Below, piece after piece: positions 571-14,557 of a stretch of 53,673 nt of DNA. This DNA comes from Escherichia phage vB_EcoM_SA91KD: sequence record NC_079183, one strand, 5' to 3'. A model generated the notes under the pieces. The model did no database searches and was not told the origin of the DNA. It saw only the letters and a program-made list of their open reading frames with translations. The stretch's first letter is position 1, and each line of letters opens with the position of its first letter. The translations under genes were made by a program, and so were the position numbers.

Positions 571-589
571 GATATTAGTTGGACGTGAA
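571..589 (+). promoter_or_regulatory. Variant copy of the recurring promoter-like box (gATATTAGTTGGAcGTGAa)
   Basis: Matches the ACATTAGTTGGATGTGA consensus seen at 10 other sites; about 160 nt upstream of the RNAP start. Confidence 0.35.
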
Positions 590-748
590 TTGTGTAATGG
601 CTACGCTATTATAATCCGTTTCAGTTAAATCATACACAATCTTGGAGACTTACAAATTGACTAGACTACTATCACCACTCAAACTATCAAATCCGTTGTT
701 CCTGCTATCACTGCTCTGGTATACCGTGCCAAAGAGAAACAGAACTAT

Positions 749-2602
749 ATGCAGCCCCAGACTTGTGCTATTGCTGCCTTAGCCATCTTCAAGATGATGA
801 CGTCTTTCACTCGTGATGACGTTGTTCCTGCCATCGCGATGGTTGAACTGGCTTCTGCTTCTATTGCTGATGCCAACCGTTATAACAACGATTTGAAAGC
901 AATGCACTATGTTGACCCAGCTATCAACCTGATTGGTTTGGCTAAGCACTTTGGCTTCATCACCATGAACGAAGACAAGTCATTCCAACAAACTGATACA
1001 TGGGTTGAACTGGTTACAACCAAAGATACCGCAGTGCCATTCACTGAGCGTGTCACTACTGAATCTCGTCGCAAGCCTTTCGTTAAAGGTGGCAAAGTTA
1101 AGCCATCCAAAACTCTGAAAGCTGCAATCGAATTCCTGCAAGATACTGAGTACCATGTGGAGACTGAGATGGTTCGCATCATTCAGTCCATGCTTGAGCA
1201 ACGTACTTATGGTGGCTTGCAGATGCCAGAAGCTATCCAGACTGAACTCCATGTTTGGAACAATGCTGTAGCAATGATGAATCAGGACACACTGTATTCT
1301 GACTACTTTGCTGACAACCGTGGTCGCCTGTATCATGTAGCATGTGCTGGTCCTAACCCACAATCATCTGACTTTGCTCGTTGCTTGTATTCTCACAATG
1401 TTGAGAACATCGTTAAGAAGTTTAACGAAGATGGTTCTACTACCATTGCATACAATATGTTCATGGCAGAGCTGGAAGATATTTCCGGTGGTGAATGGTG
1501 CACTGCTAAGCGTTTGACTTATGTTGCTCAGAATCCTGCTGGTTCACTTGCTCGCATGATGAACATGCCTAAAGCTGAACGTCCTTCCAAGCCATTCACT
1601 TATGTTCGTCTGGCTCTGGATTGGTTCAAGTTTGAGACTACAGGTGAATGCGATTCTCGTGTAGGCTTTGGCTTAGATGCTAAATGCTCTGGTACTCAAT
1701 ATCTGGCATTCATTGCTGGTAATATGGAAATGGCTCGTGCTACAGGTCTGGTTGATTCTGAGACTAAAGCATCTGACCCATACCAGCTATCTCTTCGTGA
1801 ACTGTTGAAGTTATTAGACCGTTCTTCAATGAAACCATCTCCTGAAATCATGGATGAATTCTTGAATCCGAAAGCTGGTCGTAAGTTTATCAAAACTCCA
1901 TACATGGCTATCCAATATGGTGGTGGTAAAGCTGCATTAACTGGTTCTTCTGACTTCATTAGCTACATGACAGAAGCTCTCCAGATTCCTATGGAGAAAG
2001 CTGAGGCATTTGCTGAACTGTGTGTAGAAGCAATCCATAACGCATTGGGTGCTAAGATTAACATGTTCATCGAGAAAGCTGCTGATGCTGCATACAACCG
2101 TTGTGTTGAACTTGGTAAAGAGTACATCACATACCGTCACACTGATGGTCAGGTTGTAATGAAGCCTTGCTTCCCATCTCGTGAAATCTGTGAGGCATTC
2201 AGCATTCGTGTTGACTCTCAAACTCGTGTCATCTTTGGTCAGATTCAGGAGAACAAGCCTTGGACCATTCGTGAGTCCAACCCAACTAAAGAAGAGTTCA
2301 AGCGTACCTTCGTTGTTAACTACATTCAAGGTATTGACGCATTGGTTGCTCGTACTGTTGCAGTTAAAGCTAAAGAAGCTGGTCTTCGTGGCTTTACTTC
2401 AATCCATGATTGTTTCCGTTGCTGCTTAGCTGATGCTCCACGTATGATGGAAGTTATTCGTGCAGCATATGTTGAAATCTTTGTAACCAACAATCAATTC
2501 GAGAATCTGTCTAAGCAACTTGGTGGCATTCAGATGTATCATGAGAACATCGTAACCGAAGAGCTTCTGATGAGCGAACACGCTTACTACTTCTGTCAAT
2601 AA
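749..2602 (+). CDS. T7-family single-subunit RNA polymerase, compact form (617 aa)
   Basis: Motifs DNRGR (T7 DWRGR), GLDAKCSGTQ (motif A), RKFIKTPYMAIQYGG (motif B), SIHDCF (motif C). In-frame stop at 662-664 blocks any upstream extension. Confidence 0.85.
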   Translation: MQPQTCAIAALAIFKMMTSFTRDDVVPAIAMVELASASIADANRYNNDLKAMHYVDPAINLIGLAKHFGFITMNEDKSFQQTDTWVELVTTKDTAVPFTERVTTESRRKPFVKGGKVKPSKTLKAAIEFLQDTEYHVETEMVRIIQSMLEQRTYGGLQMPEAIQTELHVWNNAVAMMNQDTLYSDYFADNRGRLYHVACAGPNPQSSDFARCLYSHNVENIVKKFNEDGSTTIAYNMFMAELEDISGGEWCTAKRLTYVAQNPAGSLARMMNMPKAERPSKPFTYVRLALDWFKFETTGECDSRVGFGLDAKCSGTQYLAFIAGNMEMARATGLVDSETKASDPYQLSLRELLKLLDRSSMKPSPEIMDEFLNPKAGRKFIKTPYMAIQYGGGKAALTGSSDFISYMTEALQIPMEKAEAFAELCVEAIHNALGAKINMFIEKAADAAYNRCVELGKEYITYRHTDGQVVMKPCFPSREICEAFSIRVDSQTRVIFGQIQENKPWTIRESNPTKEEFKRTFVVNYIQGIDALVARTVAVKAKEAGLRGFTSIHDCFRCCLADAPRMMEVIRAAYVEIFVTNNQFENLSKQLGGIQMYHENIVTEELLMSEHAYYFCQ

Positions 2603-2718
2603 GAGAAACAGGGCTGTCATCGAAAGGTGATGGCCCTTTCTTTATTCTTTATTAATTAAATCCTTTAATTCCCAATATTCAAGCAATATTGCTGCATGTA
2701 ATATTGTTTCAATATTCG

Positions 2719-2736
2719 ACATTAGTTGGATGTGAA
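2719..2736 (+). promoter_or_regulatory. Promoter-like box ACATTAGTTGGATGTGAA
   Basis: Exact consensus copy, intergenic. Confidence 0.45.
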
Positions 2737-3568
2737 GTAACAGAATACGGAGAAGTATTCCGCATGTCATGTTGAAATCATTCTAGAAACATTTCAGCAT
2801 GTCAACTAAACATACAGTGTTGTAATGATGTGGCAATCATTGAACTCCCTGTCTTTGGCCGGACAAAGTTCCAACAACCATGTGTGAAGTAGGAATTAGA
2901 TTCGAAACTGTTCTTCAACTAAAGCATGTTCAATTGCGACAATATTGCTCCATCTCCTATTATAAAGGCCCACCCACAAGCCGGGAGATAACTTTAGCAA
3001 GACTGGAACTTTTGGACATGCTTCTTTCTTTCAATCAGAATTCGAAAGAAGAGCAGAGTCGGAGCAAAGCCGCGAAACTAATCCCGTAGCCCGCCCCGAT
3101 TTTGAGCAACAAATATTGTGACAATATTGTCGCAGTATGGCATGTAAATATTGCTACAAATTGGCATGTTGGAATGTGGCAGAATTGTTAGAGGACTAAT
3201 CACCTCGAAGATACAATCGTCTACCAATCTGGCATGTTAATTTTGTAACAGTATTTGTGCCAATTTCGCATGTAATAGCTGTATCAGTATTGACCCAATA
3301 TTCTTGCAACCCGCATGAATACTGGCTTCCAGCCAAGCGAAGGCTTTATCATCGCATGTAATATTGTGACAATATTGGGATAAAACCCTTTATTTAATTG
3401 GTTTTATTATGCTGTACATGGTCGGTTTTCCGTACCTGCTTGCTCCAATCTTAATGTGCCAAATACGTTAAGTATGGGAGTAAACCTGTAATTAATGACG
3501 CATGTTTAATTGTGACAAAATTCGTCTATTTGGCAGATGAATTAGTTGCAATTAAGCATGTCCATTTA

Positions 3569-3590
3569 TCATTAGTTGTATGTGAATAAG
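3569..3590 (+). promoter_or_regulatory. Promoter-like box variant (tCATTAGTTGtATGTGAa)
   Basis: Close match, about 280 nt upstream of the first early gene. Confidence 0.35.
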
Positions 3591-3873
3591 ACCAAATCTC
3601 TGTAAATTCTGCTGAAATTGTGTGACAGATTTTAGAGAGATTATGTCTCCAAGCTAATCATTGTAGTTTTTAGACACTTTGTGTGTCACATATATAGCCT
3701 GTGAAAAACGTGTGGTATATTGCTGGATTGCGACGCGCCCACCAGACTAGGAAGTCACTGACGGCGGCACACAGGAATACTATATAACTCCCTACAACTT
3801 TAAGGTGGATTGAGGTAAGACAAGACCTCCACAATCGTTCTGTAGGGAGTTTTCTTTAACTTAGGAGAATAAA

Positions 3874-4092
3874 ATGACTCGTTTTAAAGATTTGGAAGAT
3901 GGTGCAATCTTCTTTACGCGTGGCGGAGAACATCTGCAAAAAGTTTTGGAAGATGACATTAATGTAAATGCTGTATTCGTTGGTGATTCTAGCATTGGTG
4001 TTTTATTAAATGACAATGAAAGAACTTTTACAGAAGAGGAGTTTAAAGAAATCTCAGCTTCTGATTCAGTTCAAGAGCCAATTTCAGTTTAA
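3874..4092 (+). CDS. Hypothetical early protein (72 aa, acidic)
   Basis: ATG preceded by aggag RBS; first gene after the non-coding region. Confidence 0.6.
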   Translation: MTRFKDLEDGAIFFTRGGEHLQKVLEDDINVNAVFVGDSSIGVLLNDNERTFTEEEFKEISASDSVQEPISV

Positions 4093-4130
4093 TATGGGGG
4101 GGGGAGTAACCCTCCAACTTCGGAGCTATA

Positions 4131-4382
4131 ATGGACACCATCAACAAACGTGTAAAATTTGCTGACCTGTATGAAGGTCAAATATTCACTTATAATTCTA
4201 TCAAGTGTATTAAGGTAGTGGGTGAGTGTGGTTTATACAACACTGTAAGATTTCACGACCCAAGCCGGGCATGTAAACTTAAAGACAGTGATGTTGTTGA
4301 AATCGAAATCGCATTAGAGCCAGATGGTTCAAATGATGAAATCATTCTGCGTAAAACTGTTGGATACACTAAAGGATTCTAA
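4131..4382 (+). CDS. Hypothetical early protein (83 aa)
   Basis: ORF with RBS; tightly packed operon. Confidence 0.55.
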   Translation: MDTINKRVKFADLYEGQIFTYNSIKCIKVVGECGLYNTVRFHDPSRACKLKDSDVVEIEIALEPDGSNDEIILRKTVGYTKGF

Positions 4383-4384
4383 TC

Positions 4385-4573
4385 ATGGACTTCATCGTCT
4401 ACTTTAAGTTAAATGGTGTAGAGCAAAGATTGTACTTCAATTCTTTACTTCGTTTGCAACAGTGGGCGGAGAAGTTTGTTGGTTATGACTTTGAATACAT
4501 CAATGCGTGTACACCCGACGAACATGAGGAAATCGTGTTCAGTTCTTTAAATCAAATTCTGGAGGCCAAATGA
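4385..4573 (+). CDS. Hypothetical early protein (62 aa)
   Basis: ORF abutting the previous stop. Confidence 0.5.
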   Translation: MDFIVYFKLNGVEQRLYFNSLLRLQQWAEKFVGYDFEYINACTPDEHEEIVFSSLNQILEAK

Positions 4574-4836
4574 GCCAGTTTAAGTTAAAAGCAGATTTAA
4601 TCGAGTTGGCCTCTTATGAAGAGAAAGTCGAATTCATCCAAGAACGTTTGGTTGTCAACTACGGTGGTTGGATTGATGTTTCTACAGATGAGTTAGTGGT
4701 TCGTATCAAGGAAGAGTTTGGTATTGAAATCACTAACAAACAGTTTTATGAAGATGTTCTCACAGATAAAGTTATTCGAGGCATCACAAACAATTTCATG
4801 TCCAGCTTTATGGAAGGTGGGCCACGTTTAAAATGA
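4570..4836 (+). CDS. Hypothetical early protein (88 aa)
   Basis: Start overlaps the previous stop (ATGA). Confidence 0.55.
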   Translation: MSQFKLKADLIELASYEEKVEFIQERLVVNYGGWIDVSTDELVVRIKEEFGIEITNKQFYEDVLTDKVIRGITNNFMSSFMEGGPRLK

Positions 4837-4997
4837 AGAAGCTCAAATATATGACCAAAACGGTTACATACATGGCTATGTATGGTGCTTCAAAGCGTAA
4901 GGCTAAGAAATTGGCAAGAGCTGCAAATCCTCGTATGCCAGCACGTAAAGTGGCTAAAATCGTTAATCTAGTCTTTGGGAATTGGAGTATGAAATGA
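4833..4997 (+). CDS. Small lysine-rich basic protein (about 54 aa)
   Basis: ATG overlaps the upstream stop; below the ORF-track size cut-off, found by hand. Confidence 0.35.
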   Translation: MKKLKYMTKTVTYMAMYGASKRKAKKLARAANPRMPARKVAKIVNLVFGNWSMK

Positions 4998-5176
4998 GCA
5001 GGATTCTGACGTCAGCAATGTACAACCTGCATTTAGGATTCAGCTACACTACAGTAAAGCGTCAGGAGAAACGGCACTCTCGATTGCCTGCACGAACTGT
5101 TGCCAAAGAAGTGGGAAAAGCAGTCGAGATTCTAAAATTCTGCGGAACGTATTGTGATAATTTGGAGAGAAAATGA
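4982..5176 (+). CDS. Hypothetical small protein (60-64 aa)
   Basis: Track ORF; likely start is the ATG near 4994 after a ggag RBS. Confidence 0.4.
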   Translation: MEYEMSRILTSAMYNLHLGFSYTTVKRQEKRHSRLPARTVAKEVGKAVEILKFCGTYCDNLERK

Positions 5177-5346
5177 ACGACCAGCAATTCAACACATTCA
5201 TGCAGCAGATTAATCATCAAGAATTAATGGACACTCTCAAAGGCAAGAAGCCCGTTGAACGTAAATATCGTAAAATTGATAATTATATGCCAACAATCAT
5301 TGCATGTGTTGGATTCCTGATTGTTCTTTACTTCCTGGTGAAATAA
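5173..5346 (+). CDS. Small protein with C-terminal transmembrane anchor (57 aa)
   Basis: ggagaga RBS then ATG; C-terminal hydrophobic segment IIACVGFLIVLYFLV. Hand-derived. Confidence 0.4.
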   Translation: MNDQQFNTFMQQINHQELMDTLKGKKPVERKYRKIDNYMPTIIACVGFLIVLYFLVK

Positions 5347-5440
5347 TGTCGATTATTAAGAAATTAGTATTCTGTGCTTTAATGTTCCCTTTGGTGCTGC
5401 TCGTTGTGGGCAGCTTCATAATCTAAACTAAGGTAATTAA

Positions 5441-5749
5441 ATGGCTTCTTTACTCGAATTCTCGAATATTGCAAATGTTGCTAAGAATTCCATCCCTGCA
5501 AATACCGACGTAATTGCGTACATGCGTGTTGATGTAAGTCTGTTAGCTTTTGTAATGGACCACATCAACCTAATCGAAGCGCAGTTGTCTCAGTCTTATG
5601 AAACAGTTGACACTCTTCGTGAACTTCGTAAGGCAGAACAAAGCGCCTACGATGAATTAATGGAGCAGAAGAACAAGCTCCAAGAACAGTTGGCAGACGC
5701 ACTTCAACAAATTGAAGACATGAAGCCACCAGCAGAACCAACCGAATAA
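5441..5749 (+). CDS. Hypothetical protein with predicted coiled-coil C-terminus (102 aa)
   Basis: ORF with RBS; heptad-like charged C-terminal half. Confidence 0.55.
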   Translation: MASLLEFSNIANVAKNSIPANTDVIAYMRVDVSLLAFVMDHINLIEAQLSQSYETVDTLRELRKAEQSAYDELMEQKNKLQEQLADALQQIEDMKPPAEPTE

Positions 5750-5767
5750 TCAAACTTAGGAGTTATT

Positions 5768-6028
5768 ATGGCTACCAAAACAGGCATGATGATTGTCCCA
5801 AGCCGTAATAACTCTTTAAGCGGCTTTACACCATATAAAATCTATGAAGTGATTTCTGGCACTGGTGAAGCAAACCTGTCAGAAGTTGCTTTGAAGTTGG
5901 GCCGTATGGTCCACTCCGAAATCTCCTGTAACGTAGTTGATGATGAAGGTAAAATCCGTTTTGTAACAATGGATTTCTTTCGTGAATTTAACCTCAAATC
6001 TGAATTAGGAGTTCTGTACCATGAATGA
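5768..6028 (+). CDS. Hypothetical protein (86 aa)
   Basis: aggag RBS before ATG. Confidence 0.55.
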   Translation: MATKTGMMIVPSRNNSLSGFTPYKIYEVISGTGEANLSEVALKLGRMVHSEISCNVVDDEGKIRFVTMDFFREFNLKSELGVLYHE

Positions 6029-6203
6029 GGATGATGTTGTCTGCCCAAAGTGTGGCAGCAATAACGTAGACCATGTAGCACACGAAGCAGTGGGAATGTA
6101 TGGTCCAGTAGTTCTGGATAGTGCATTCTGTGTAGATTGTGGTTTAAACATTTATCGTGGAAAACTTATAGACAATAGTGGGAATATCCCGCCAAAAGGA
6201 TAA
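6021..6203 (+). CDS. Zinc-ribbon small protein (60 aa), first of a tandem paralog trio
   Basis: CPKCG...CVDCG pairs; C-terminus NIPPKG echoes the NIPLKG of the 6433 gene. Confidence 0.5.
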   Translation: MNEDDVVCPKCGSNNVDHVAHEAVGMYGPVVLDSAFCVDCGLNIYRGKLIDNSGNIPPKG

Positions 6204-6205
6204 TC

Positions 6206-6433
6206 ATGAAATTTAAATGTGTTGCTTCAACCAAAGACTACGTTCCAGTTGGCCTAATCATCGAGGGTGAAGCTGTTTCACCTTTGGAATTTAAAGTTAC
6301 CAAATCTGCTGAGAGTATTTCTCCAGCATTTCGTAAAGGTGCTGTCGTTCCCATGAATGGTGCATTCTGGACATGGCAGCGTGACCATCGCGCAGAGTTT
6401 GCAGATATTTGTGAACAAGGGAGCTTGCAGTAA
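6206..6433 (+). CDS. Small protein (75 aa), paralog pair with 6433-6639
   Basis: Both start M(A)KFKCV.ST. Confidence 0.5.
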   Translation: MKFKCVASTKDYVPVGLIIEGEAVSPLEFKVTKSAESISPAFRKGAVVPMNGAFWTWQRDHRAEFADICEQGSLQ

Positions 6434-6639
6434 TGGCTAAATTTAAATGTGTAAAATCAACATCCTATGGAGATTGCTCTCCTAAAGTTGGTGACGTGAT
6501 TGAGGGGAAACTCAAACATGGCCGAATCTTAATTTCGAAGGACAGTGACTGTAAGAATGTGTTTGGAAACCCGTATTGGGTTGATGGAGAAAATATTCCG
6601 CTAAAAGGCAGTATCTGGTCCTGGGAAGAAGTTGAATAA
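6433..6639 (+). CDS. Small protein (68 aa), paralog of 6206-6433
   Basis: N-terminal MAKFKCVKST matches the neighbour; start overlaps its stop. Confidence 0.5.
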   Translation: MAKFKCVKSTSYGDCSPKVGDVIEGKLKHGRILISKDSDCKNVFGNPYWVDGENIPLKGSIWSWEEVE

Positions 6640-6645
6640 TTTCCT

Positions 6646-6672
6646 CAACCACTTTTGTAATGAGAGTGGTTG
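6646..6672 (+). terminator. Hairpin (caaccact...agtggttg), possible intrinsic terminator
   Basis: 8-bp perfect stem with 11-nt loop right after the 6433-6639 stop; followed by AT-rich sequence, not a clean U-tract. Confidence 0.35.
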
Positions 6673-6702
6673 CTGAATATTATTAATTAACTTGGAGCAT
6701 TT

Positions 6703-6993
6703 ATGAAACAACGTACTCGTTTACAACGTGACCCAGCCACAGGTCGCTTGTTGCCAGCATATTTGAAGGTTGGTGACTTAGTTTACACTCGCGACTTTGC
6801 TTTTGACATTTGCCCAAGCAAAGCGTATGAAGTTCTTGCCACCAGCTTATCTGGTCCTAAGGTGATATTTGGTGCGCTTGAGCCCATTCAATTAACCGGA
6901 ACTCAGTTTGTCATTAAAGACGAATCTGGTTGCAACCGAATCTTCAATCTTGAAGGCGGCTTATCTAAATGGGAGAAGGTGAAGCGTGGGTAA
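6703..6993 (+). CDS. Hypothetical protein (96 aa)
   Basis: ggagcatttATG RBS context that recurs before several genes. Confidence 0.55.
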   Translation: MKQRTRLQRDPATGRLLPAYLKVGDLVYTRDFAFDICPSKAYEVLATSLSGPKVIFGALEPIQLTGTQFVIKDESGCNRIFNLEGGLSKWEKVKRG

Positions 6994-7219
6994 GAATTAT
7001 ATCGAAATGTTTAAGCAATTGTCTATAAATGGGCAGGAGTTCTTGTTAAACGATGTAAGACAAGATATTGAATTGTCTGACAAGTATTCTTATTTTGCCC
7101 AAAAGACAATTGTGAAGTGGACATTCTCTTACGTGTCCGCCAGTATTCCAGTAGAAACGCTTGTGATTAGCGGTTCTGGTGGTTCCGCATTATCCGCTTT
7201 GGAGAAACTAAAGCAATGA
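6986..7219 (+). CDS. Hypothetical protein (77 aa)
   Basis: Overlapping start/stop in operon. Confidence 0.5.
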   Translation: MGKNYIEMFKQLSINGQEFLLNDVRQDIELSDKYSYFAQKTIVKWTFSYVSASIPVETLVISGSGGSALSALEKLKQ

Positions 7220-7503
7220 ACAAGAATTCAATCTTACGCTATGTTGGTAAAACAAACTACAACTTTACCAACGGTAAGAAATACAAAATCGTCGCAGGTC
7301 GTGGCGACGGAGTTCCTCGCAACAACGGTACACTCGGTGCGTATATTCAATCTCCTTTGGGTTTTGTCGTTAATGACGATAACCGCAATTTATGTTATCG
7401 TACATTCTCCGATAATTGGGAACTTGTGAAAGATTCTGGCGAAGTTAGTTGGTATAAACCTGAATCAAACATGGACCCAATTCCAATTTCAAAGGTGATG
7501 TAA
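7216..7503 (+). CDS. Hypothetical protein (95 aa)
   Basis: ORF in operon, overlapping junctions. Confidence 0.5.
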   Translation: MNKNSILRYVGKTNYNFTNGKKYKIVAGRGDGVPRNNGTLGAYIQSPLGFVVNDDNRNLCYRTFSDNWELVKDSGEVSWYKPESNMDPIPISKVM

Positions 7504-7736
7504 TGAATTGGGTTATGAGAGATATTGTAATACCTTTCGTACTAATGTTGTTGTCTGTTCTGGTTGTCATTGGTGTGCCTACATACTTTGTTTACCAGTA
7601 TGAGTGTAAAACCTTTGCAGAATTGCAACAAACTGAATTCAAATACACTATCAATGGTTCCTGCTACGTCAAATCCAAAAGTGGCGAATGGATAACCAAA
7701 AATATGTGGTACTTTGATAAAGTACTTGGAGGATGA
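7503..7736 (+). CDS. Small membrane protein (77 aa, N-terminal TM helix)
   Basis: Hydrophobic segment IVIPFVLMLLSVLVVIGVPTYFVY. Confidence 0.5.
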   Translation: MNWVMRDIVIPFVLMLLSVLVVIGVPTYFVYQYECKTFAELQQTEFKYTINGSCYVKSKSGEWITKNMWYFDKVLGG

Positions 7737-7737
7737 A

Positions 7738-7935
7738 ATGCGTGTAAATACACATTTGTACAGCCACAAAAGCCACAGTCCTATGAACATCTTTGCTGGA
7801 TGGACTTTATGGTTTGTTGGTGAAGAATGCAGTCCTTGGCACAACGTTGAATGCAAATTCTTTCCAGCGAAGCCAACCAAAAAGCAAGTGCGCAAATTGC
7901 GTAGAAAGTTTATAAACGATTGTAAGTCCTGTTAA
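7738..7935 (+). CDS. Cys/His-rich small protein (about 65 aa)
   Basis: ATG 5 nt after ggagg RBS; the track ORF starts at an upstream TTG (7714). Confidence 0.45.
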   Translation: MRVNTHLYSHKSHSPMNIFAGWTLWFVGEECSPWHNVECKFFPAKPTKKQVRKLRRKFINDCKSC

Positions 7936-7975
7936 ATTAACAAGGAGCATTCATTGAGTGTTCCTGATTAATTCA

Positions 7976-7992
7976 ACATTAGTTGGATGTGA
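7976..7992 (+). promoter_or_regulatory. Promoter-like box ACATTAGTTGGATGTGA
   Basis: Exact consensus, intergenic, about 75 nt upstream of the SSB-like gene. Confidence 0.45.
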
Positions 7993-8064
7993 GAGACAAA
8001 GCTATTCCGTGGTTAGCAATGTCACTGAAACTTAAACTGTAATTAACTTAAGAGAATCTTAATC

Positions 8065-8436
8065 ATGGCACAATATTCAGATGTAAACACTGGCATCATC
8101 GGTCCTAACGGCTTCAAGAAAGACCCAAAACATCCCGACATTCGTGGACGTATTAACGTTGACGGAATCTGGTATTGGGTATCTGGTTGGAACAAGCAAG
8201 CAAATGGTAATGAATTTACCTCGCTGGCACTCACCATCATGACCCAAGAACAGGTCGATGAAATGATGCGCAAGCGTGAAGAGAAAGCTAAAGCCAAAGC
8301 TCAACCTCAAGCCGCTGCACAACAGCAACGTCAGCAACCTTCTGCTGCACAGCAACAGCAAGCTCCTGCTCAACAACAGCAGAGTAATTACAATCCAAAC
8401 GAGCCGAAAGACTTCGACGACGACATTCCATTCTAA
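8065..8436 (+). CDS. SSB-like protein with Gln-rich linker and host-type acidic tip DFDDDIPF (123 aa)
   Basis: C-terminus PNEPKDFDDDIPF matches the conserved SSB tail of enterobacterial SSB; compact N-terminal beta-rich domain. Confidence 0.65.
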   Translation: MAQYSDVNTGIIGPNGFKKDPKHPDIRGRINVDGIWYWVSGWNKQANGNEFTSLALTIMTQEQVDEMMRKREEKAKAKAQPQAAAQQQRQQPSAAQQQQAPAQQQQSNYNPNEPKDFDDDIPF

Positions 8437-8558
8437 TTGGAGATGCCCTATGAAAATTCTATGTTTTATAGGGCTACATAATTGGGAAATTTCACATGAA
8501 AACGATTATGTAACCTTTTGGGTTTGTAAGCATTGTTCAGCAATGCGTGAGGAATATC

Positions 8559-9455
8559 ATGGCAACTAACGTTATTGAAATACCTGCCAACTTGGTCAAA
8601 ACTGGCGACGTTGTAATTCATGAAGGTAAAGAGTATCTGATTGGGTATGTCTTCAGAATGGGTGTAGTTCAACTGCAATATTCTGGTGGATGTTTCAATT
8701 TTGAGTGGGACCAGGCAGTCAAAATCTTGGATAAACGTCCTACTACAGACTCCTTTGCAAAACCGGGCGCAACAACACGCGCAGTATTGGCAAGTCAAGT
8801 TCGACCCGGCAACACCTTATCTTATGGAATCAGGTTCTTTAAGATAAAGGAAGTTAAAGACCTGGGGGAAAGTGAGGTTCGCTTAATCCACGAAACAGGC
8901 TACTTTGACTTTTTACACAACCGCGTAGTCCATATTGTTAACGAGCCACCAGCTTTGGAAACTCCAACAATGGCATTCAACACCGAGATAAAGCCAGTGT
9001 TCCTTCCTTACGAGGGAGCAGTGAAACCATTCTCAGATGAAGAAGATGTTAAAGGTGCTGATGTTGAAGTTGGCGATGTTATCCGGTATAAAGGTGATTG
9101 GGCAACTGTCACAAATGCGTACAAACACCCAAATTCACCATACAATAAAATCAATATTAACTACGGCGACGTAAAAGGTTTGCAAGTACGTCTGATATTA
9201 ACTGGAACTTATTCGAGAAAGGTAAGAGCAGTAATGGAAACATTAAATATTCAAAATGCAATCGAAGCACAACGCATTCTTCTGCAAAAGCTGGAGCAAA
9301 TGTTGGAATTAACCCAGCTGCCTCCAACAGAAGATGGCAAGATGGCAATTGGCAATGCGTCAATTCGCGTGGACAAGGCAACAGTTATTAAAGCCGCACG
9401 CGATGAAATGAAAGCTGCCGCAAGCAAATCCGCAGAGCTTATCAAGAAGCTGTAA
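8559..9455 (+). CDS. Hypothetical early protein (about 298 aa)
   Basis: ATG 6 nt after gagg RBS (track ORF starts at GTG 8547); no recognisable motif. Confidence 0.55.
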   Translation: MATNVIEIPANLVKTGDVVIHEGKEYLIGYVFRMGVVQLQYSGGCFNFEWDQAVKILDKRPTTDSFAKPGATTRAVLASQVRPGNTLSYGIRFFKIKEVKDLGESEVRLIHETGYFDFLHNRVVHIVNEPPALETPTMAFNTEIKPVFLPYEGAVKPFSDEEDVKGADVEVGDVIRYKGDWATVTNAYKHPNSPYNKININYGDVKGLQVRLILTGTYSRKVRAVMETLNIQNAIEAQRILLQKLEQMLELTQLPPTEDGKMAIGNASIRVDKATVIKAARDEMKAAASKSAELIKKL

Positions 9456-9507
9456 TTAACAGAGGTCATTCCACTTCGAGTGGCCTCGATTAATTATAGG
9501 AGGAATT

Positions 9508-9717
9508 ATGGAAATACATATGTCTGGGGGTTTCTCCGGAGCAAAGATGCAAGGTGTAGTTTGTCCTGATTGCGGTCATGGTGGTGGCTCAAGCTATCCA
9601 TGTTGGTGCAGTAAATGTTACGACAAAGGTAGTAAAGTTTTAATGCTACCCTCTGTAAACAAATTCACTTATGTTTGCAGTTGGTCTGAATCTTTAAAAT
9701 TCCAACAGGGCAAGTAG
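9508..9717 (+). CDS. Cys-rich zinc-finger-like small protein (69 aa)
   Basis: CPDCG...CWCSKC...C pattern; taggagg RBS. Confidence 0.5.
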   Translation: MEIHMSGGFSGAKMQGVVCPDCGHGGGSSYPCWCSKCYDKGSKVLMLPSVNKFTYVCSWSESLKFQQGK

Positions 9718-9729
9718 TCTGGAGCATTC

Positions 9730-10080
9730 ATGAAAACTTTATACATTGCACTCACAATTTTGTTTGGGGTATTCGCATTCAAATCAGAAGCATCTGTTCG
9801 CAGCTTCCAGTGTGGCGGGTACAAAATGTCCGTTGAAACAATAACAATGAGCCAGCCACTCATTGCAACAATTTCTTTGCACGAGGGTACTTGGATTGAG
9901 ATTCCAGACAACGGAAATCCTAACCCAATGTCCACAGTGTTCTACAATACACAGAGCAGTAAGCTGGCCTTAGTTGGTGTTGACGCTGAGGAACGTTTGG
10001 TGCTACAGATTTATCGTGACATTGACTTCTTTCATGCCAAATTTCCATTGTTATCAACCTATTGTAAGGAAGTTAAATGA
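9730..10080 (+). CDS. Predicted secreted/periplasmic protein (116 aa)
   Basis: Signal-peptide-like N-terminus MKTLYIALTILFGVFAFKSEASV. Confidence 0.5.
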   Translation: MKTLYIALTILFGVFAFKSEASVRSFQCGGYKMSVETITMSQPLIATISLHEGTWIEIPDNGNPNPMSTVFYNTQSSKLALVGVDAEERLVLQIYRDIDFFHAKFPLLSTYCKEVK

Positions 10081-10310
10081 CGTCATCCGAATTTACCATT
10101 GATGGAGTACCATACTTACTTGAATCCAGTTGCGAATATCGTCACTGGTCAGTAATTCGCGACCGAGTAGTCAAATTCTTGGAGCGAGTAGGGAAAGATG
10201 CAGCTATTCTGACTACCGCCACAGTAGAAGGAACAACCGAAATCAATCGGGAGCTTGTATCTTTTAAATTAACCATCAACCCAACAGGAAATCCATTCCG
10301 TGAAAGTTGA
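10077..10310 (+). CDS. Hypothetical protein (77 aa)
   Basis: ORF in operon. Confidence 0.45.
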   Translation: MTSSEFTIDGVPYLLESSCEYRHWSVIRDRVVKFLERVGKDAAILTTATVEGTTEINRELVSFKLTINPTGNPFRES

Positions 10311-10569
10311 AGAACTGGCTGACCAACTTAAGGCAGCAAAACGAGAGTCTGCAAATCAATCAGAACGTGTTGCAAAACTGAAAGGGCAAGGCTCAACGTC
10401 CGAAGAAATCCAGTTATTTACAGATAATGTCTGGTTTTCAATGAATCGTGCACAATTTATCGAGATTCAGGAAGAACGTCTTACTGAACTGGAGAAGCGT
10501 GTAGAAACACTTGAGAGCTTGCTTGTAACACTGCAAGAAACTCTGGACCAGGAACTGAAAAATGTCTAA
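10300..10569 (+). CDS. Hypothetical coiled-coil protein (89 aa; start uncertain)
   Basis: Track ORF with GTG start overlapping the upstream stop. Confidence 0.4.
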   Translation: MKVEELADQLKAAKRESANQSERVAKLKGQGSTSEEIQLFTDNVWFSMNRAQFIEIQEERLTELEKRVETLESLLVTLQETLDQELKNV

Positions 10570-10978
10570 CGTTAAGCTGGGCCAACGCTCCCTTGACCGA
10601 CTCAAAGGTGTAAATCCTTCATTGGTGGCAGTTTTCAAGCGTGCATGTGAAACAATGCCGTTTGACGTAACTGTTCTTGAAGGATTGCGCACTTATGAGC
10701 GTCAACAAGAGCTTTTAAAGCAAGGTGCAACCAAAGTTCCAGTTAGCCGACACATGTCAGGCAACGCTTTAGATATTGCACCATATCCAATTGACTGGAA
10801 TGACCTCGAACGATTCAAAGTTTTAGCTCATCATATGTTCAAAGCTGCAAAAGAGCTTGGAATTACCATTCGTTGGGGTGGGAACTGGAGCCGTATTGAT
10901 GAAAATCAGCCGTATCCACCACTTGCACCAGGTAAGAAGAAGCTGATTGATATGCCGCACTTCGAACTTCCAGCATAA
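10562..10978 (+). CDS. Peptidase M15 (L-alanyl-D-glutamate peptidase type, T5-endolysin-like), 138 aa
   Basis: Zinc-site motifs SRHMSGNALDI and DMPHFE; region DIAPYPIDWNDLERF...KELGITIRWGGNW resembles the phage T5 endolysin (recalled from memory). Confidence 0.7.
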   Translation: MSNVKLGQRSLDRLKGVNPSLVAVFKRACETMPFDVTVLEGLRTYERQQELLKQGATKVPVSRHMSGNALDIAPYPIDWNDLERFKVLAHHMFKAAKELGITIRWGGNWSRIDENQPYPPLAPGKKKLIDMPHFELPA

Positions 10979-10986
10979 CTTCATCA

Positions 10987-11277
10987 ATGGAGCATCCGAT
11001 GAATTACGAAGATATCCCAAGAGAGTTGAATGCACTAGAGGCAAGGACCAGACGTGCAGAATCTGTTCTCCACCAGCACCTGTCACTTAATGTAAGTGAT
11101 GAAAAAAGGATGCGGTATACTTTGGAACTTGACGAAGTGGTTTATACTGTCAGCTACAACGAGAAGGCCGCTATTCTAAGTGCGCTTGTCAAAAGCGGAG
11201 AGGAGCGAATCAATCAGCTTAAAATTCTGGACACAGAATTGAAAGGTACTTGGGAGAAACTCAATGCAAAACGATAA
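10987..11277 (+). CDS. Hypothetical protein (92-96 aa)
   Basis: Likely ATG near 10999 after ggagcatccg RBS. Confidence 0.5.
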   Translation: MEHPMNYEDIPRELNALEARTRRAESVLHQHLSLNVSDEKRMRYTLELDEVVYTVSYNEKAAILSALVKSGEERINQLKILDTELKGTWEKLNAKR

Positions 11278-11812
11278 CATCGCTAAAGCAGTAGAACAGC
11301 TAAAGTCCTGGCGTAGAGATGAAACCTTACTGGTTCGTTTCTACACAGGCGAAACTAATTCTGAATTTGTAGATGCGTGGATTGATGGCCTATCTTGGCG
11401 TCACTATGATTTCGACATGCGAGATTATTTGCATGAAGAATACGGCATTGAATATCCAGAAGACGGCACATATGACGTAATTGAATCAAACGAAGAAGAT
11501 GTTACCGAAGTTTGTTTTGTTGACGGACTGTTCAGCATTCGTAAGTATGATAAGTTCAATGAGCTGCTTGTTGACACCGATTTGGATGTAATTCTTGCAG
11601 CATTCCGTAGTGGTGATATTGATATTTTCACTGTGGATGACTTGAACGACAAGGTTATTGCCCGATGTGATTCAATTGCGGAATATTTCCAACAATATGA
11701 TGGCATAGAAGTTCCAGACCACCTTCGTCCATATATTGATTGGGATGCAGTTGTAAGAGATTACGGAAGTGATTACACTTTCTCCGAAGGAATACTATTC
11801 TCAAATGCGTGA
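11264..11812 (+). CDS. Highly acidic protein, ArdA-like antirestriction (DNA-mimic) candidate, 182 aa
   Basis: About a quarter Asp/Glu; C-terminal EVPDHLRPYIDWDAVVRDYGSDYTFSEGILF resembles the conserved ArdA C-terminus as I recall it. Confidence 0.5.
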   Translation: MQNDNIAKAVEQLKSWRRDETLLVRFYTGETNSEFVDAWIDGLSWRHYDFDMRDYLHEEYGIEYPEDGTYDVIESNEEDVTEVCFVDGLFSIRKYDKFNELLVDTDLDVILAAFRSGDIDIFTVDDLNDKVIARCDSIAEYFQQYDGIEVPDHLRPYIDWDAVVRDYGSDYTFSEGILFSNA

Positions 11813-12044
11813 TTTAAATATTGCTGAACTTGAGGCTGGATTGATTGTTCACCACCAGACTCGAAACACTTTCTATCGTATTCTTGGACCCACAAAGATT
11901 AAAACTCACTGCGGAAGTTGGGTGGATGGGTTTGCTTACCAAGAGGTGAAGAAGTACGGGGACCATACTTTCTTAAGCATTGATTCTTCTACTATCTACA
12001 CACGACCGAAAGAGCTATTTGACTCGGATTGGAAAACACTGTAG
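11769..12044 (+). CDS. Hypothetical protein (79-91 aa; start GTG 11769 or ATG 11805)
   Basis: ORF overlapping the end of the acidic gene. Confidence 0.4.
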   Translation: MITLSPKEYYSQMRDLNIAELEAGLIVHHQTRNTFYRILGPTKIKTHCGSWVDGFAYQEVKKYGDHTFLSIDSSTIYTRPKELFDSDWKTL

Positions 12045-12110
12045 TTCCAGGCGGGTTTCTTCGAAGTGCCAAGCGGGTTTTGTACTCGCATTGGCCTTCT
12101 GCTTTAGTCT

Positions 12111-12130
12111 GAAACATTAGTGGGATTTGA
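12111..12130 (+). promoter_or_regulatory. Promoter-like box variant (gaaACATTAGTgGGATtTGA)
   Basis: First of three tandem copies in a non-coding kilobase. Confidence 0.4.
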
Positions 12131-12254
12131 TTCTGACCACTTAGGGAAGAAAGGCATTATACACTTATCGCCAAATGGGTGTCAAGCACTTTCTTCATTT
12201 ATTTTAATTTATTCTTATTATTCTCTTTGTTTGGAATATTGGAATAATTCTGAA

Positions 12255-12271
12255 ACATTAGTTGGAATTGA
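12255..12271 (+). promoter_or_regulatory. Promoter-like box (tctgaaACATTAGTTGGAaTTGA)
   Basis: Second tandem copy; shares the tctgaaac prefix with the 12111 and 14552 copies. Confidence 0.4.
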
Positions 12272-12391
12272 ATTAGTGTAATTCTGTCTGTACTCTTTTC
12301 CATTAGCAATTGTAGAGGGAGTCCACTGCAATAAGCGCAGCCTCAAACAACCAAGTCTGGACAACTTGGGAAGAGAGTGCAGCACAAAATT

Positions 12392-12408
12392 ACATTAGTT
12401 GGAGTTGA
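12392..12408 (+). promoter_or_regulatory. Promoter-like box (tACATTAGTTGGAgTTGA)
   Basis: Third tandem copy. Confidence 0.4.
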
Positions 12409-12690
12409 AGAAACAACATCAGATAATAACTTTGTAACTCGGTAGACCGTTGCGGCCGCATCGTGCGAGAATGTTCGACTCATTCTACAAAGTTATTTTC
12501 GATGGAATGTTTCCATCATATACATTTATCTTTTAACATAGGCCAAAGGGCCGGAATACTTATTCGCAGAAAAGCTATTCACTTGTTATAGGCGATGTAT
12601 TGGGATGAATTGGAACTAAATAAGCAAGCTGTTAGGGCTGAATAATTAGAGGGTTATGCCTCATGCTTATGTTAGTCATTCGAAAATAGG

Positions 12691-13024
12691 TTTGTGCCAC
12701 AAGCCGCTGGTGCTCTGAGGGAGTCGGACAAACAGGGCTTAGAGTGGCATAATCCGCACAAAACCGCGCCACCAGCTATGCCAAAGCGGGTGGTTTGGGT
12801 GAATGTATTGGGAAGGGTTGCAAAGCCTCTGTGGCCTCCGCAGCTTGCCAGGCTGCTATGCAGATATGATGCGTAGGTCGCACCCTAACGGGAGTAACCC
12901 TTCGCCAATGCAGTTATCCAGAATTGACACAAACGGTAGGCAGCGGCCCGATTTTCGGCCTTCCTGCGCTACTCTGTGGCCTGTTCCTGGGCCAAAAGAT
13001 GAGAAGAGAAGTCACAAACACTGA
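12691..13024 (+). ncRNA. GC-rich non-coding island; candidate structured RNA or small inserted element
   Basis: Visibly GC-richer than flanks; track ORFs here translate to Pro/Arg/Trp-rich nonsense; internal repeat ctctgtggcct twice; flanked by imperfect direct repeats (attcgaaaatagg / aatcgaaaattgg). Confidence 0.3.
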
Positions 13025-13045
13025 ATCGAAAATTGGAGAGTTCCT

Positions 13046-13852: not shown

Positions 13853-13853
13853 A

Positions 13854-14528: not shown

Positions 14529-14557
14529 GTCGTTTGACGAATCAGAGCAGTTCTGAA

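What the first reader, a model, noticed from the sequence alone, without database searches (positions are those of the whole stretch)
749..2602. Compact T7-family RNA polymerase lacking the N-terminal promoter-binding domain
The ORF has all catalytic landmarks of single-subunit RNAPs (DNRGR, motif A GLDAKCSGTQ, motif B RKFIKTPYMAIQYGG, motif C SIHDCF) but corresponds only to roughly T7 residues 235-883. An in-frame stop at 662-664 and a non-coding 748-nt leader rule out a longer N-terminus here. The missing part includes the AT-rich recognition loop region used for promoter binding and opening. The size is similar to the combined two-subunit N4 RNAP II, which needs accessory factors, so this enzyme probably relies on a separate factor or an N-terminal fragment encoded elsewhere.
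Basis: partly seen in the sequence, partly recalled or inferred. Interest (0 to 1): 0.7.

Follow-up and report, generated by a model that had tools for sequence, protein, structure and literature searches.

The report
Compact phage RNA polymerase, reduced N-terminus
This is the already-annotated T7-type RNA polymerase gene of a Chaseviridae coliphage; the whole family is about 240 residues shorter than T7's enzyme because its front domain is cut down and replaced by a small family-specific fold, and in this genome a private 6-base insertion has also destroyed the normal start codon.

Summary
The ORF (749-2602, 617 aa), its four catalytic motifs and the in-frame TAG at 662-664 are all real. The window is a complete Carltongylesvirus (phiEcoM-GJ1/ST32-like, Chaseviridae) genome, and this is its gp1 RNA polymerase (99.5% aa identity to ST32).

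Two corrections:
- **The 617-aa start is not the native one.** All relatives checked start 29 codons upstream, at an ATG behind a GGAGAC Shine-Dalgarno. The window keeps those codons intact and in frame (665-748). A private 6-nt insertion turns ATG ACT into ATT GAC TAG ACT.
- **The N-terminal domain is reduced, not absent.** About 150 residues fold confidently into a helical bundle with a beta-hairpin and a conserved basic loop (RRKPFVKGGKVKPSK). This region has no sequence match to T7's N-terminal domain (Pfam RPOL_N absent, T7 control positive).

The counterpart of T7 1-100, which includes the AT-rich loop, is missing, along with about 36 thumb residues. The polymerase core, specificity loop and catalytic residues are retained.

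No N-terminal-domain-like ORF or N4 gp1/gp2 homologue exists elsewhere in the genome. The gene upstream is nrdB.

A strand-specific motif of about 18 nt (aaCATTAGTTGGATGTGA, 9 copies) is the likely promoter.

The architecture is family-wide (107 phage records). At about 646 aa it is smaller than N4 RNAPII (673 aa). I found no biochemical characterisation of it.

The parts
749..2602 (+). RNA polymerase ORF as callable in this sequence (617 aa plus stop). It corresponds to residues 30-646 of the family's native protein.
   Evidence: 99.5% aa identity to ST32 gp1
665..748 (+). In-frame, intact codons for the conserved N-terminal helix (TTITTQTIKSVVPAITALVYRAKEKQNY). They are cut off from any start codon in this genome.
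   Evidence: The helix spans residues 5-26 of the model, with pLDDT up to 93.
656..664 (+). The lesion ATT GAC TAG. A 6-nt insertion (TGACTA, 657-662) relative to all relatives destroys the ancestral ATG and creates the in-frame TAG.
   Evidence: alignment. The window variant has 0 hits and the ancestral variant 4 hits in IMG/VR.
644..649 (+). Shine-Dalgarno GGAGAC, 6 nt upstream of the ancestral start position. No comparable SD precedes the ATG at 749.
   Evidence: (ST32 table lists TGGAGACttacaaATG)
571..590 (+). Promoter-like box gaTATTAGTTGGACGTGAAt, 68 nt upstream of the ancestral start.
   Evidence: Syntenic copies lie upstream of the RNAP gene in Myduc and 4HA13.
665..1015 (+). Family-specific N-terminal domain: five helices and a beta-hairpin (FITMNEDKSFQQT, nt 956-994), with a winged-helix-like topology.
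1067..1111 (+). Conserved basic loop RRKPFVKGGKVKPSK (the first Arg is invariant), just before the helix that aligns with T7 residue 316. The greedy alignment places it opposite T7 GRRPLALVRTH (~291-300).
1313..1327 (+). DNRGR, equivalent to T7 D421-R425 (the DxxGR block).
1670..1699 (+). Motif A GLDAKCSGTQ (Asp equivalent to T7 D537).
1880..1924 (+). Motif B RKFIKTPYMAIQYGG (Lys equivalent to T7 K631, Tyr to T7 Y639).
2198..2299 (+). Specificity-loop equivalent (FSIRVDSQTRVIFGQIQENKPWTIRESNPTKEEF). It is a beta-hairpin region aligned to T7 ~739-775, with net charge 0.
2399..2416 (+). Motif C SIHDCF (His-Asp equivalent to T7 H811-D812).
2610..2637 (+). Strong intrinsic-terminator-like hairpin (12 pairs) followed by a T-run, directly after the RNAP stop codon.
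2718..2737 (+). Promoter-like box immediately downstream of the RNAP gene (gaCATTAGTTGGATGTGAAg). It is syntenic in Y2, Myduc and 4HA13.
3571..22915 (+). Seven further copies of the box on the coding strand, at 3571, 7978, 12116, 12257, 12394, 14560 and 22901. All but 22901, which lies in the 3' end of ORF 22674-22946, fall in gaps between ORFs.
   Evidence: 9 copies in all against 0.23 expected, with 0 of 100 shuffles reaching 9..

Best explanation
This gene encodes the Chaseviridae gp1 RNA polymerase, a single-polypeptide member of the T7-like (family-A, right-hand) RNAPs.

Shown:
- The native form is ~646 aa (about 72.8 kDa). It starts at the ATG that relatives carry at the position of window nt 656.
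- The window itself carries a private 6-nt insertion that removes that ATG. Only Met30 (nt 749) is left as a start, unless the insertion is a sequence error.
- The polymerase core is retained and aligns to T7 316-883. It includes the DxxGR block, motifs A/B/C with the T7 D537, K631, Y639, H811 and D812 equivalents, the specificity-loop hairpin and the C-terminal foot.
- The front of the enzyme is rebuilt. T7's 325-residue N-terminal domain is replaced by ~150 residues. These comprise a five-helix/beta-hairpin domain found only in this family and a conserved basic loop.
- The counterpart of T7 1-100, which includes the AT-rich recognition loop, is absent. About 36 thumb residues are also missing, and in the low-confidence N-terminal alignment so is much of subdomain H.

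Inferred:
- Host RNAP makes the enzyme early, because the gene is the first gene of the genome and lies inside the long terminal repeat in relatives.
- The enzyme then transcribes the phage from ~18-bp promoters of consensus aaCATTAGTTGGATGTGA(a/g).
- It reads the promoter core with the specificity loop. The small N-terminal domain, with its hairpin and basic loop, does the job of T7's promoter-binding domain in reduced form.
- One promoter copy in front of its own gene would give positive feedback.
- Whether it needs a helper protein is open. I lean (about 55:45) towards autonomous promoter recognition.
For: Identity and family:
- megablast places the window in Carltongylesvirus.
- tblastn gives 99.5% aa identity to ST32 gp1, and 107 phage records carry the gene.
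- The protein matches PF00940 and PHROG 414.

Structure:
- The AlphaFold model has pLDDT 92.5 and pTM 0.86.
- Foldseek's best match is T7 RNAP at E 6e-19.
- hhalign against T7 gives 98% probability, and 99.6% against a 9-sequence T7-like profile. The catalytic residues map one to one.

Native start:
- Six relatives share the ATG and the SD.
- The N-terminal helix is conserved in distant homologues.
- The insertion is private to the window.

Reduced N-terminal domain:
- RPOL_N is absent while the T7 control is positive.
- The N-terminal profile hits only 57 clusters among 1.84 billion representatives. They are 44-901 aa long, most 600-850 aa, with the match at the N-terminus of the long ones. 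None has the size or alignment position of a canonical T7-like RNAP.
- The N-terminal profile matches no solved structure by sequence.
- The compact size is family-wide. Most of the 120 listed homologues are 626-732 aa, a few reach 779-901 aa, and all show PF00940 as their only Pfam domain.

Promoter:
- There are 9 strand-specific copies against 0.23 expected, eight of them between ORFs.
- The motif is conserved, with genus-specific variants, in 4HA13, Y2 and Myduc, including syntenic copies flanking the RNAP gene.
- Myduc, whose box reads TTGAG instead of TTGGA, has a 4-aa insertion in the specificity loop.
- Eight consensus promoters were predicted independently for phage PP101 (PMC6989608).
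Against: - There is no biochemical or transcript-mapping evidence at all. The ICTV profile states that promoters 'have not yet been identified'.
- The N-terminal alignment to T7 is not significant on its own (E 0.11).
- The hairpin tip is acidic (NEDK) and variable in length, unlike T7's Val237-bearing intercalating hairpin.
- The fold of the N-terminal domain matches winged-helix proteins as well as it matches T7.
- According to the N4 review, most characterised T7-like RNAPs other than T7's own need factors.
- All clear motif copies lie in the first 23 kb, so late genes may be transcribed differently.
- If the 6-nt insertion is real, this particular phage makes a protein that lacks conserved helix 1. 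That sits awkwardly with the helix being essential.
Confidence: 0.6

Rival explanations
1. The enzyme is a factor-dependent minimal RNAP, working like N4 RNAPII or mitochondrial RNAP. The cut-down N-terminal domain is a docking platform for one or more phage early proteins that bind or melt the promoter. One candidate is the SSB-like protein at 8065-8436, which sits directly behind a promoter box. The 302-aa and 243-aa proteins of unknown function are others. On this view the polymerase alone cannot open double-stranded promoters.
For: - The AT-rich loop region and the RPOL_N domain are lost.
- The thumb is truncated, as in N4 RNAPII.
- The N-terminal domain resembles protein-interaction winged-helix domains (kleisin, cullin WHB) as much as DNA-binding ones, and its hairpin tip is acidic.
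- The N-terminal domain of N4 RNAPII is proposed to recruit cofactors rather than bind the promoter (PMC7145618 citing Molodtsov & Murakami 2018).
- An SSB family gene lies 73 nt behind a box copy.
- Many small early ORFs have no known function.
Against: - There are no homologues of N4 gp1, gp2 or gp15.
- No partner gene is conserved next to the RNAP in divergent loci.
- The candidate promoter has 15-18 conserved positions, unlike N4 RNAPII's short AT-rich -7..+2 element.
- The specificity loop is retained, has T7-like length and is charge-neutral. N4 RNAPII's loop is reported to be too negatively charged to bind DNA.
- The protein is closer to T7 than to N4 RNAPII. hhalign gives 98-99.6% probability for T7, against 94.7% over only 186 columns for gp16.
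Confidence: 0.3
2. The 617-aa gene model is an artefact. The 6-nt insertion at 657-662 is an assembly or sequencing error, possibly arising from collapsing the two terminal-repeat copies. On this view the phage really encodes the ordinary 646-aa protein, and nothing about this window differs from ST32 or GJ1.
For: - The insertion is private to the window.
- It looks like a T plus a tandem GACTA duplication in a short repeat context.
- The 28 downstream codons are undamaged and identical in protein sequence to ST32.
- No SD precedes the ATG at 749, while a good one precedes the destroyed ATG.
- The exact 617-aa product is not on record in public assemblies.
Against: - A 6-nt error is unusual for short-read assemblies.
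- The reads cannot be inspected here.
- A real, recent mutation would look the same.
Confidence: 0.5
3. The enzyme is split. The missing T7-type N-terminal domain is supplied by a separate ORF elsewhere in the genome, or by an upstream exon just outside the window.
For: - N4 RNAPII provides a precedent for a split enzyme.
- Some relatives are annotated with longer ORFs, such as the 724 aa of Shigella phage 2KOFFS.
Against: - A T7-like N-terminal-domain HMM against all 634 six-frame ORFs of at least 40 aa gives a best E of 0.29.
- tblastn finds nothing.
- Pfam and PHROG scans of ten early ORFs show no RNAP-related family.
- The window is the whole genome. Its last ORF is nrdB, which also precedes the RNAP region in the four relatives whose fetched records extend upstream.
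- The 2KOFFS extension is an unrelated upstream ORF that happens to lack a stop. It joins the RNAP at the normal SD/ATG.
- The protein's own N-terminus folds as a complete domain packed on the core.
Confidence: 0.03

Closest known systems
gp1 RNA polymerase of phiEcoM-GJ1, ST32 and other Chaseviridae (annotated, not characterised)
   Same: It is the same gene. It has 92-99.5% aa identity within Carltongylesvirus and 66-77% to Erwinia, Pectobacterium and Proteus genera. It sits in the same position, after nrdB and the terminal non-coding region, and is flanked by the same promoter-like boxes.
   Different: Only the window carries the 6-nt insertion that removes the ATG. The literature calls this a 'large' T7/Autographiviridae-like RNAP. 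I found no mention that it lacks the canonical N-terminal domain.
T7 RNA polymerase (883 aa; PDB 1CEZ, 1QLN, 3E2E)
   Different: It is about 240 residues shorter. It has no RPOL_N domain by sequence. It has no counterpart of T7 1-100, which carries the AT-rich recognition loop. In the low-confidence N-terminal alignment most of subdomain H (181-209) and the tip of the intercalating hairpin (236-242) are absent. The thumb is shorter by ~36 residues and the fingers insertion 589-612 is missing. The N-terminal ~120 residues are a family-specific domain.
[quoted passage not shown]
   Different: This enzyme is one polypeptide, not a heterodimer. It has no sequence match to gp15. The genome has no gp1 or gp2 cofactor homologues. 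The protein is closer to T7 than to N4 RNAPII. Its candidate promoter is long and specific rather than a short AT-rich element. At ~646 aa it is slightly smaller.
Mitochondrial RNA polymerases (yeast Rpo41, human POLRMT)
   Different: Mitochondrial enzymes are much larger, with PPR and N-terminal extensions, and they keep a T7-like N-terminal domain. No Mtf1/TFB2M-like gene was seen in this genome, though only ten early ORFs were scanned.

Membership tests
T7-like single-subunit RNA polymerases | Polymerase domain of the RNA_pol family (Pfam PF00940), with a right-hand family-A fold | tested here: met
T7-like single-subunit RNA polymerases | Catalytic residues: two Asp (T7 D537, D812), K631, Y639, H811 and the DxxGR block (D421/R423/R425) | tested here: met
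   The profile alignment maps D217/D338/K410/Y418/H581/D582 (645-aa numbering) to T7 D421/D537/K631/Y639/H811/D812. These are invariant columns in the 64-sequence family alignment.
T7-like single-subunit RNA polymerases | Specificity-loop beta-hairpin inserted in the fingers between motifs B and C | tested here: met
   Four predicted strands at residues 505-536, aligned to T7 ~735-775 and of similar length.
T7-like single-subunit RNA polymerases | Canonical N-terminal domain (Pfam RPOL_N PF14700) | tested here: not met
   There is no PF14700 hit at E<=1 for the 645-aa translation, whereas T7 RNAP gives E 1.2e-34 in the same call. All 120 listed homologues carry PF00940 only.
T7-like single-subunit RNA polymerases | AT-rich recognition loop (T7 93-101) | tested here: not met
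   Even the greedy profile alignment starts at T7 residue 101, so nothing corresponds to T7 1-100. This part of the alignment is low-confidence.
T7-like single-subunit RNA polymerases | Intercalating beta-hairpin (T7 230-245) | tested here: inconclusive
T7-like single-subunit RNA polymerases | Promoter-specific, DNA-dependent RNA synthesis | not testable with these tools
   The only evidence is indirect: a 15-18-nt strand-specific motif with 9 copies against 0.23 expected, conserved across genera.
N4 RNAPII-type minimal heterodimeric RNAP | Enzyme split into two polypeptides (gp15-like and gp16-like) | tested here: not met
   A single continuous ORF, modelled as one chain with pTM 0.86.
N4 RNAPII-type minimal heterodimeric RNAP | Truncated N-terminal domain and truncated thumb | tested here: met
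   About 150 residues stand in for T7's 315 before the thumb. About 36 thumb residues are missing. The feature is described for N4 RNAPII in PMC4496689.
N4 RNAPII-type minimal heterodimeric RNAP | Cofactors gp1 and gp2 (an ssDNA-binding recruiter) encoded by the phage | tested here: not met
   tblastn of N4 gp1 and gp2 against the window gives no hit for gp1 and E>=3.8 for gp2. An unrelated SSB family gene exists at 8065-8436. Its role was not tested.
N4 RNAPII-type minimal heterodimeric RNAP | Sequence relationship closer to gp15/gp16 than to T7-type enzymes | tested here: not met
   gp15 gives no alignment (probability 0.4%). gp16 gives 94.7% over 186 columns. T7 gives 98-99.6% over 453-601 columns.
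Chaseviridae gp1 RNA polymerase | High identity to the annotated gp1 of phiEcoM-GJ1 and ST32, and the same genome position | tested here: met
   99.5% aa identity to ST32 and 92.1% to GJ1. Nucleotide identity over nt 1-4000 is 90-96%. nrdB lies upstream in relatives.
Chaseviridae gp1 RNA polymerase | Native ATG start with a GGAGAC Shine-Dalgarno, giving a ~646-aa product | tested here: not met
   The SD is present, but a private 6-nt insertion replaces ATG with ATT GAC TAG.

The most novel reading that the evidence does not exclude
The ~646-aa Chaseviridae enzyme may be a self-sufficient, promoter-specific RNA polymerase. It would be smaller than any single-subunit RNAP I know to have been characterised. 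It would open and read an ~18-bp double-stranded promoter using only the specificity loop and a ~120-residue family-specific winged-helix-like domain, without the AT-rich recognition loop. In the low-confidence N-terminal alignment most of subdomain H, which T7 refolds on leaving the promoter, is also missing. That would define a new minimal solution for promoter recognition and promoter escape in this enzyme family.
Probability: 0.3. Interest if true: 0.65.

Novelty: new variant of a known kind. Interest (0 to 1): 0.45.

Why it matters
T7-type RNA polymerases are central tools for in-vitro mRNA production and orthogonal expression. They are also the model for how a single protein finds, opens and leaves a promoter. 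In T7 all of those steps depend on its 325-residue N-terminal domain.

This phage family (107 genome records) runs on an enzyme that keeps the catalytic core and specificity loop but has less than half of that domain, in a different fold. The genome nevertheless appears to use long, specific promoters.

If the enzyme works alone, it is a smaller orthogonal polymerase-promoter pair. It would also be a natural experiment showing which parts of the T7 N-terminal domain are dispensable. If it needs a helper, it gives a second, single-chain example of the N4 RNAPII / mitochondrial strategy in an easily grown coliphage.

The practical corrections matter too:
- Annotations of this gene vary between 617, 646 and 704-724 aa.
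- The literature calls the enzyme 'large'.
- The start codon in this genome is damaged.

Tried and rejected
1. **N-terminal fragment encoded elsewhere.** Rejected.
   - tblastn of T7 1-325, N4 gp15, gp1 and gp2 against the window found nothing.
   - An HMM of nine T7-like N-terminal domains against all 634 six-frame ORFs gave a best E of 0.29.
   - Pfam and PHROG scans of ten early ORFs showed no RNAP-related family.
2. **Upstream exon outside the window.** Rejected. The window is the full genome. nrdB is its last gene, and it also precedes this region in the four relatives whose fetched records extend upstream.
3. **The longer 704-724-aa annotations as a real N-terminal extension.** Rejected. 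In Shigella phage 2KOFFS / P0001 an inserted upstream ORF simply lacks a stop before the normal SD/ATG.
4. **Sequence homology of the N-terminal ~150 residues.**
   - To T7: not significant (E 0.11).
   - To N4 gp15: none.
   - To any solved structure: none.
   - To Pfam: none.
5. **A conserved neighbouring cofactor gene.** In prophage loci from Pseudomonas brenneri and Hafnia alvei the RNAP is flanked by 0.6-1.5 kb of non-coding DNA, as here. No shared partner gene is present.
6. **Reading the box as a sigma-70 promoter.** Rejected. No -10 element lies at the proper spacing after TTGGAT, and the scan shows no enrichment (12 sites against 10.6 expected).
7. **Rfam scan of nt 1-4000.** No RNA family matched.
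8. **Papers not held in the library.** The phiEcoM-GJ1 genome paper (PMC2223254) and the N4 RNAPII structure paper (PMC6120196) could not be read. From memory, the GJ1 abstract reports nine putative phage promoters. That would match the nine boxes here, but I could not verify it.
Full report
**What the window is.** Megablast of nt 1-4000 finds 60 phage records. The best are Escherichia phages Ecp_YSF, flopper and ST32 at 94-96% identity, all Chaseviridae of the genus Carltongylesvirus. All genes lie on the + strand. The last ORF (52570-53673) is nrdB and ends at the last base of the window. In the four relatives whose fetched records extend upstream, nrdB directly precedes the region that corresponds to window position 1. 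The window is therefore a whole genome opened just after nrdB, and the finding concerns its first gene, the annotated 'RNA polymerase' gp1.

**Checking the observation.** The ORF 749-2602 encodes 617 aa. Pfam RNA_pol matches aa 293-592 (E 8e-18). The T7-like RNAP family PHROG 414 matches aa 172-616 against profile positions 374-816 of 816 (E 1.5e-96). TAG at 662-664 is in frame, and no start codon lies between it and 749. The description of the sequence is accurate.

**The start of the gene.**
- ST32, flopper, Ecp_YSF and MLP1 annotate a 646-aa protein with 29 extra N-terminal residues, MTTITTQTIKSVVPAITALVYRAKEKQNY.
- In the window these codons are intact and in frame at 665-748.
- All six relatives aligned read GGAGACttacaaATGACTACT. 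This includes DE15, whose annotators chose the downstream ATG. The window reads GGAGACttacaaATTGACTAGACTACT, a 6-nt insertion that destroys the ATG and creates the TAG.
- The exact window variant is absent from IMG/VR, while the ancestral variant occurs in four contigs.
- The exact 617-aa product is not on record in public assemblies.
- The extension is not an annotation accident. Its SVxPxI helix is conserved in homologues down to ~35% identity. It is modelled as a confident helix (residues 5-26) packed into the N-terminal domain.
- A good Shine-Dalgarno precedes the destroyed ATG, and none precedes the ATG at 749.

The native family protein is therefore ~646 aa. The window carries either a recent lesion or a sequence error, and I cannot tell which.

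**How compact, and where the residues went.**
- A profile of 64 family members aligns to T7 RNAP with 98% probability, matching residue 151 (645-aa numbering) to T7 316 and the C-terminus to T7 881.
- Against a profile of nine diverse T7-like RNAPs the probability is 99.6%.
- D421, D537, K631, Y639, H811 and D812 of T7 all have identical counterparts.
- Segments of T7 with no counterpart are 347-354, 367-376 and 381-398 (thumb), 589-612 (fingers) and several shorter loops.
- In the low-confidence N-terminal part, the segments with no counterpart are 1-100, 181-209, 236-242, 266-286 and 307-314.
- The AlphaFold model of the 645-aa translation is confident (pLDDT 92.5, pTM 0.86).
- Foldseek puts T7 RNAP first (E 6e-19).

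About 500 residues are thus a standard T7-type core, and about 145 at the front are not superposed with it.

**The N-terminal region.** It is not empty.
- Residues 1-117 form five helices and a beta-hairpin (99-109) with pLDDT 85-98.
- A loop follows that contains the most conserved N-terminal element, RRKPFVKGGKVKPSK, whose first Arg is invariant.
- Then comes the helix that aligns with T7 316.
- By sequence the region is an orphan. Pfam RPOL_N is absent at E<=1, while T7 scores 1.2e-34 in the same search. Nothing matches among PDB sequences. N4 gp15 does not match.
- A profile search of 1.84 billion representative proteins finds only 57 clusters. Most are 600-850 aa, with the match at the N-terminus, and several are the compact RNAPs. 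None has the size or alignment position of a canonical T7-like RNAP.
- The best local profile match of the N-terminal part to T7 is helix plus hairpin, 87-120 against T7 214-257. That is the position of the intercalating hairpin, but the E-value is 0.11.
- The hairpin tip is acidic and variable in length across the family.

My reading is a strongly reduced, diverged promoter-binding domain. Its equivalence to T7's hairpin is plausible but unproven.

**Is the missing part encoded elsewhere?** No.
- tblastn with T7 1-325 and with N4 gp15, gp1 and gp2 finds nothing.
- An HMM of nine T7-like N-terminal domains against all 634 six-frame ORFs of at least 40 aa has a best E of 0.29.
- The full-length HMM hits only this ORF.
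- Ten early ORFs scanned against PHROGs and Pfam include an SSB family protein (8065-8436), an endolysin and an ArdA-like anti-restriction protein, but nothing RNAP-related.
- The 704-724-aa versions in Shigella phage 2KOFFS and in cluster P0001 come from an inserted upstream ORF that lacks a stop before the usual SD/ATG.

**Family-wide character.** A search of 5.8 billion proteins returns 165 homologues. Most of the 120 listed are 626-732 aa, a few reach 779-901 aa, and all show PF00940 as their only Pfam domain. In the phage collection 107 records carry the gene, from Escherichia, Erwinia, Aeromonas, Yersinia, Shewanella, Pectobacterium, Proteus, Pantoea and Vibrio phages. The compact architecture is a stable property of the lineage, not a truncation in one genome.

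**How it probably works.**
- A box, ATTAGTTGGAYGTGA, occurs nine times within two mismatches, always on the + strand. Only 0.23 copies are expected, and no shuffle reached nine.
- With flanks the consensus is aaCATTAGTTGGATGTGA(a/g). Eight copies lie between ORFs, and the copy at 22901 lies in the 3' end of ORF 22674-22946.
- One copy lies 68 nt before the ancestral RNAP start, one just after the RNAP terminator, one 73 nt before the SSB gene, and three in tandem at 12116-12408.
- The same box, with genus-specific variants, is the top repeated word in the first 30 kb of 4HA13 (..TTGGAAtTGA) and Y2 (TTTAGTTGGATGTGAAg), and second-ranked in Myduc (CATTAGTTGAGtGTGAAg). Syntenic copies flank the RNAP gene.
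- Myduc, the one with TTGAG, has a 4-residue insertion at the tip of the specificity-loop equivalent. This is suggestive but rests on a single case.
- The box is not a sigma-70 promoter.
- The PP101 paper predicted eight such promoters. The ICTV profile nevertheless says promoters are not yet identified.
- A strong terminator hairpin follows the RNAP stop codon.
- In Myduc, 4HA13 and Mangalitsa the RNAP gene lies inside the ~3.1-3.2-kb direct terminal repeat.

I infer early expression by host RNAP, then phage-RNAP transcription from the boxes, with a feedback copy in front of its own gene. The box has 15-18 conserved positions, and the specificity loop is retained, of T7-like length and charge-neutral. 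By contrast N4 RNAPII has a short AT-rich promoter, and its loop is reported to be too negatively charged to bind DNA. This tilts me towards autonomous recognition. On the other side, the AT-rich loop region is lost, and most characterised T7-like enzymes are factor-dependent. That keeps the factor-dependent rival alive at about 0.3.

**Comparison with what is known.** The gene is known and annotated. [quoted passage not shown] I found no paper noting the missing canonical N-terminal domain and none characterising the enzyme. [quoted passage not shown] The Chaseviridae enzyme is a single chain of ~646 aa, closer in sequence to T7 than to N4 RNAPII, and has a different N-terminal domain. I rate it a new variant of a known kind. 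It is moderately interesting, and it is testable with simple biochemistry in a coliphage.

**Verdict.** Interest is 0.45. The most novel reading still open is an autonomous ~73-kDa promoter-specific RNAP, at probability ~0.3.

Noticed in passing
window 71-108, 277-314, 351-366, 2655-2716, 2924-2948, 3106-3138, 3354-3380, 3500-3522: The non-coding DNA on both sides of the RNAP gene carries at least eight copies of a palindromic box, AATATTG-N3-5-CAATATT. It looks like an operator. Large non-coding flanks around the RNAP gene are also seen in distant prophage homologues (L020-L023).
   Followed up: partly
window 146-173, 200-227, 3414-3441: There are three copies of a 28-nt repeat, GTACATGGTCGGTCAACTGTATCTCCTT (79% identity). 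Two are upstream and one downstream of the RNAP gene. They overlap small ORFs that some relatives annotate as hypothetical proteins.
   Followed up: no
L018 1-3202 (Myduc); L019 1-3120 (4HA13); (Mangalitsa, and two places per record in JL1, PYps23T, PM1, Y2 and ZPAH14): In relatives with mapped ends, the RNAP gene lies inside the ~3.1-3.2-kb direct terminal repeat. A virion genome therefore carries two copies. The window has the repeat collapsed, since its first 30-50 nt do not recur.
   Followed up: partly
L021 (Pseudomonas brenneri chromosome CP122540.1); L022 (Hafnia alvei chromosome): Compact RNAP homologues (38-53% identity) sit in bacterial chromosomes, inside myovirus-like prophages with an integrase a few kb away. 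The ICTV profile describes Chaseviridae as lytic.
   Followed up: partly
L005 1069-3243 (Shigella phage 2KOFFS); protein cluster P0001 (704 aa, 271 member sequences): A sub-lineage has an insertion upstream of the RNAP gene. Its small ORF (MTNEEYRALAADGARLKEEGQGW...) runs in frame into the RNAP without a stop, which gives annotations of 704-724 aa.
   Followed up: partly
L004 739-2592 (phage DE15): DE15 is annotated with the 617-aa start although its upstream ATG and Shine-Dalgarno are intact. Start annotation of this gene is inconsistent across GenBank records.
   Followed up: yes
window 12116-12408: Three promoter-like boxes lie in tandem, ~140 nt apart, in a ~750-nt gap without ORFs (12045-12800). 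Each is preceded by ctgaaAC or aattAC.
   Followed up: no
window 574-22915 versus 23000-53673; variant box at 42771: All nine good copies of the box lie in the first 43% of the genome. The structural-gene half has only a weaker variant (CATTAGTTGAAtatg) at 42771, just before the ORF at 42809. Late genes may depend on read-through or on another polymerase.
   Followed up: partly
window 15895-15986, with a C10 run at about 15880-15889: A single tRNA-Ser(GCT) gene of 92 nt is preceded by a run of ten C.
   Followed up: no
window 8065-8436: An SSB family gene (PHROG 7364, E 1.5e-42) lies 73 nt downstream of a perfect box copy (7978-7992). The arrangement is conserved in Y2, Myduc and 4HA13. N4-type minimal RNAPs use ssDNA-binding cofactors, so it is a candidate helper.
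   Followed up: partly
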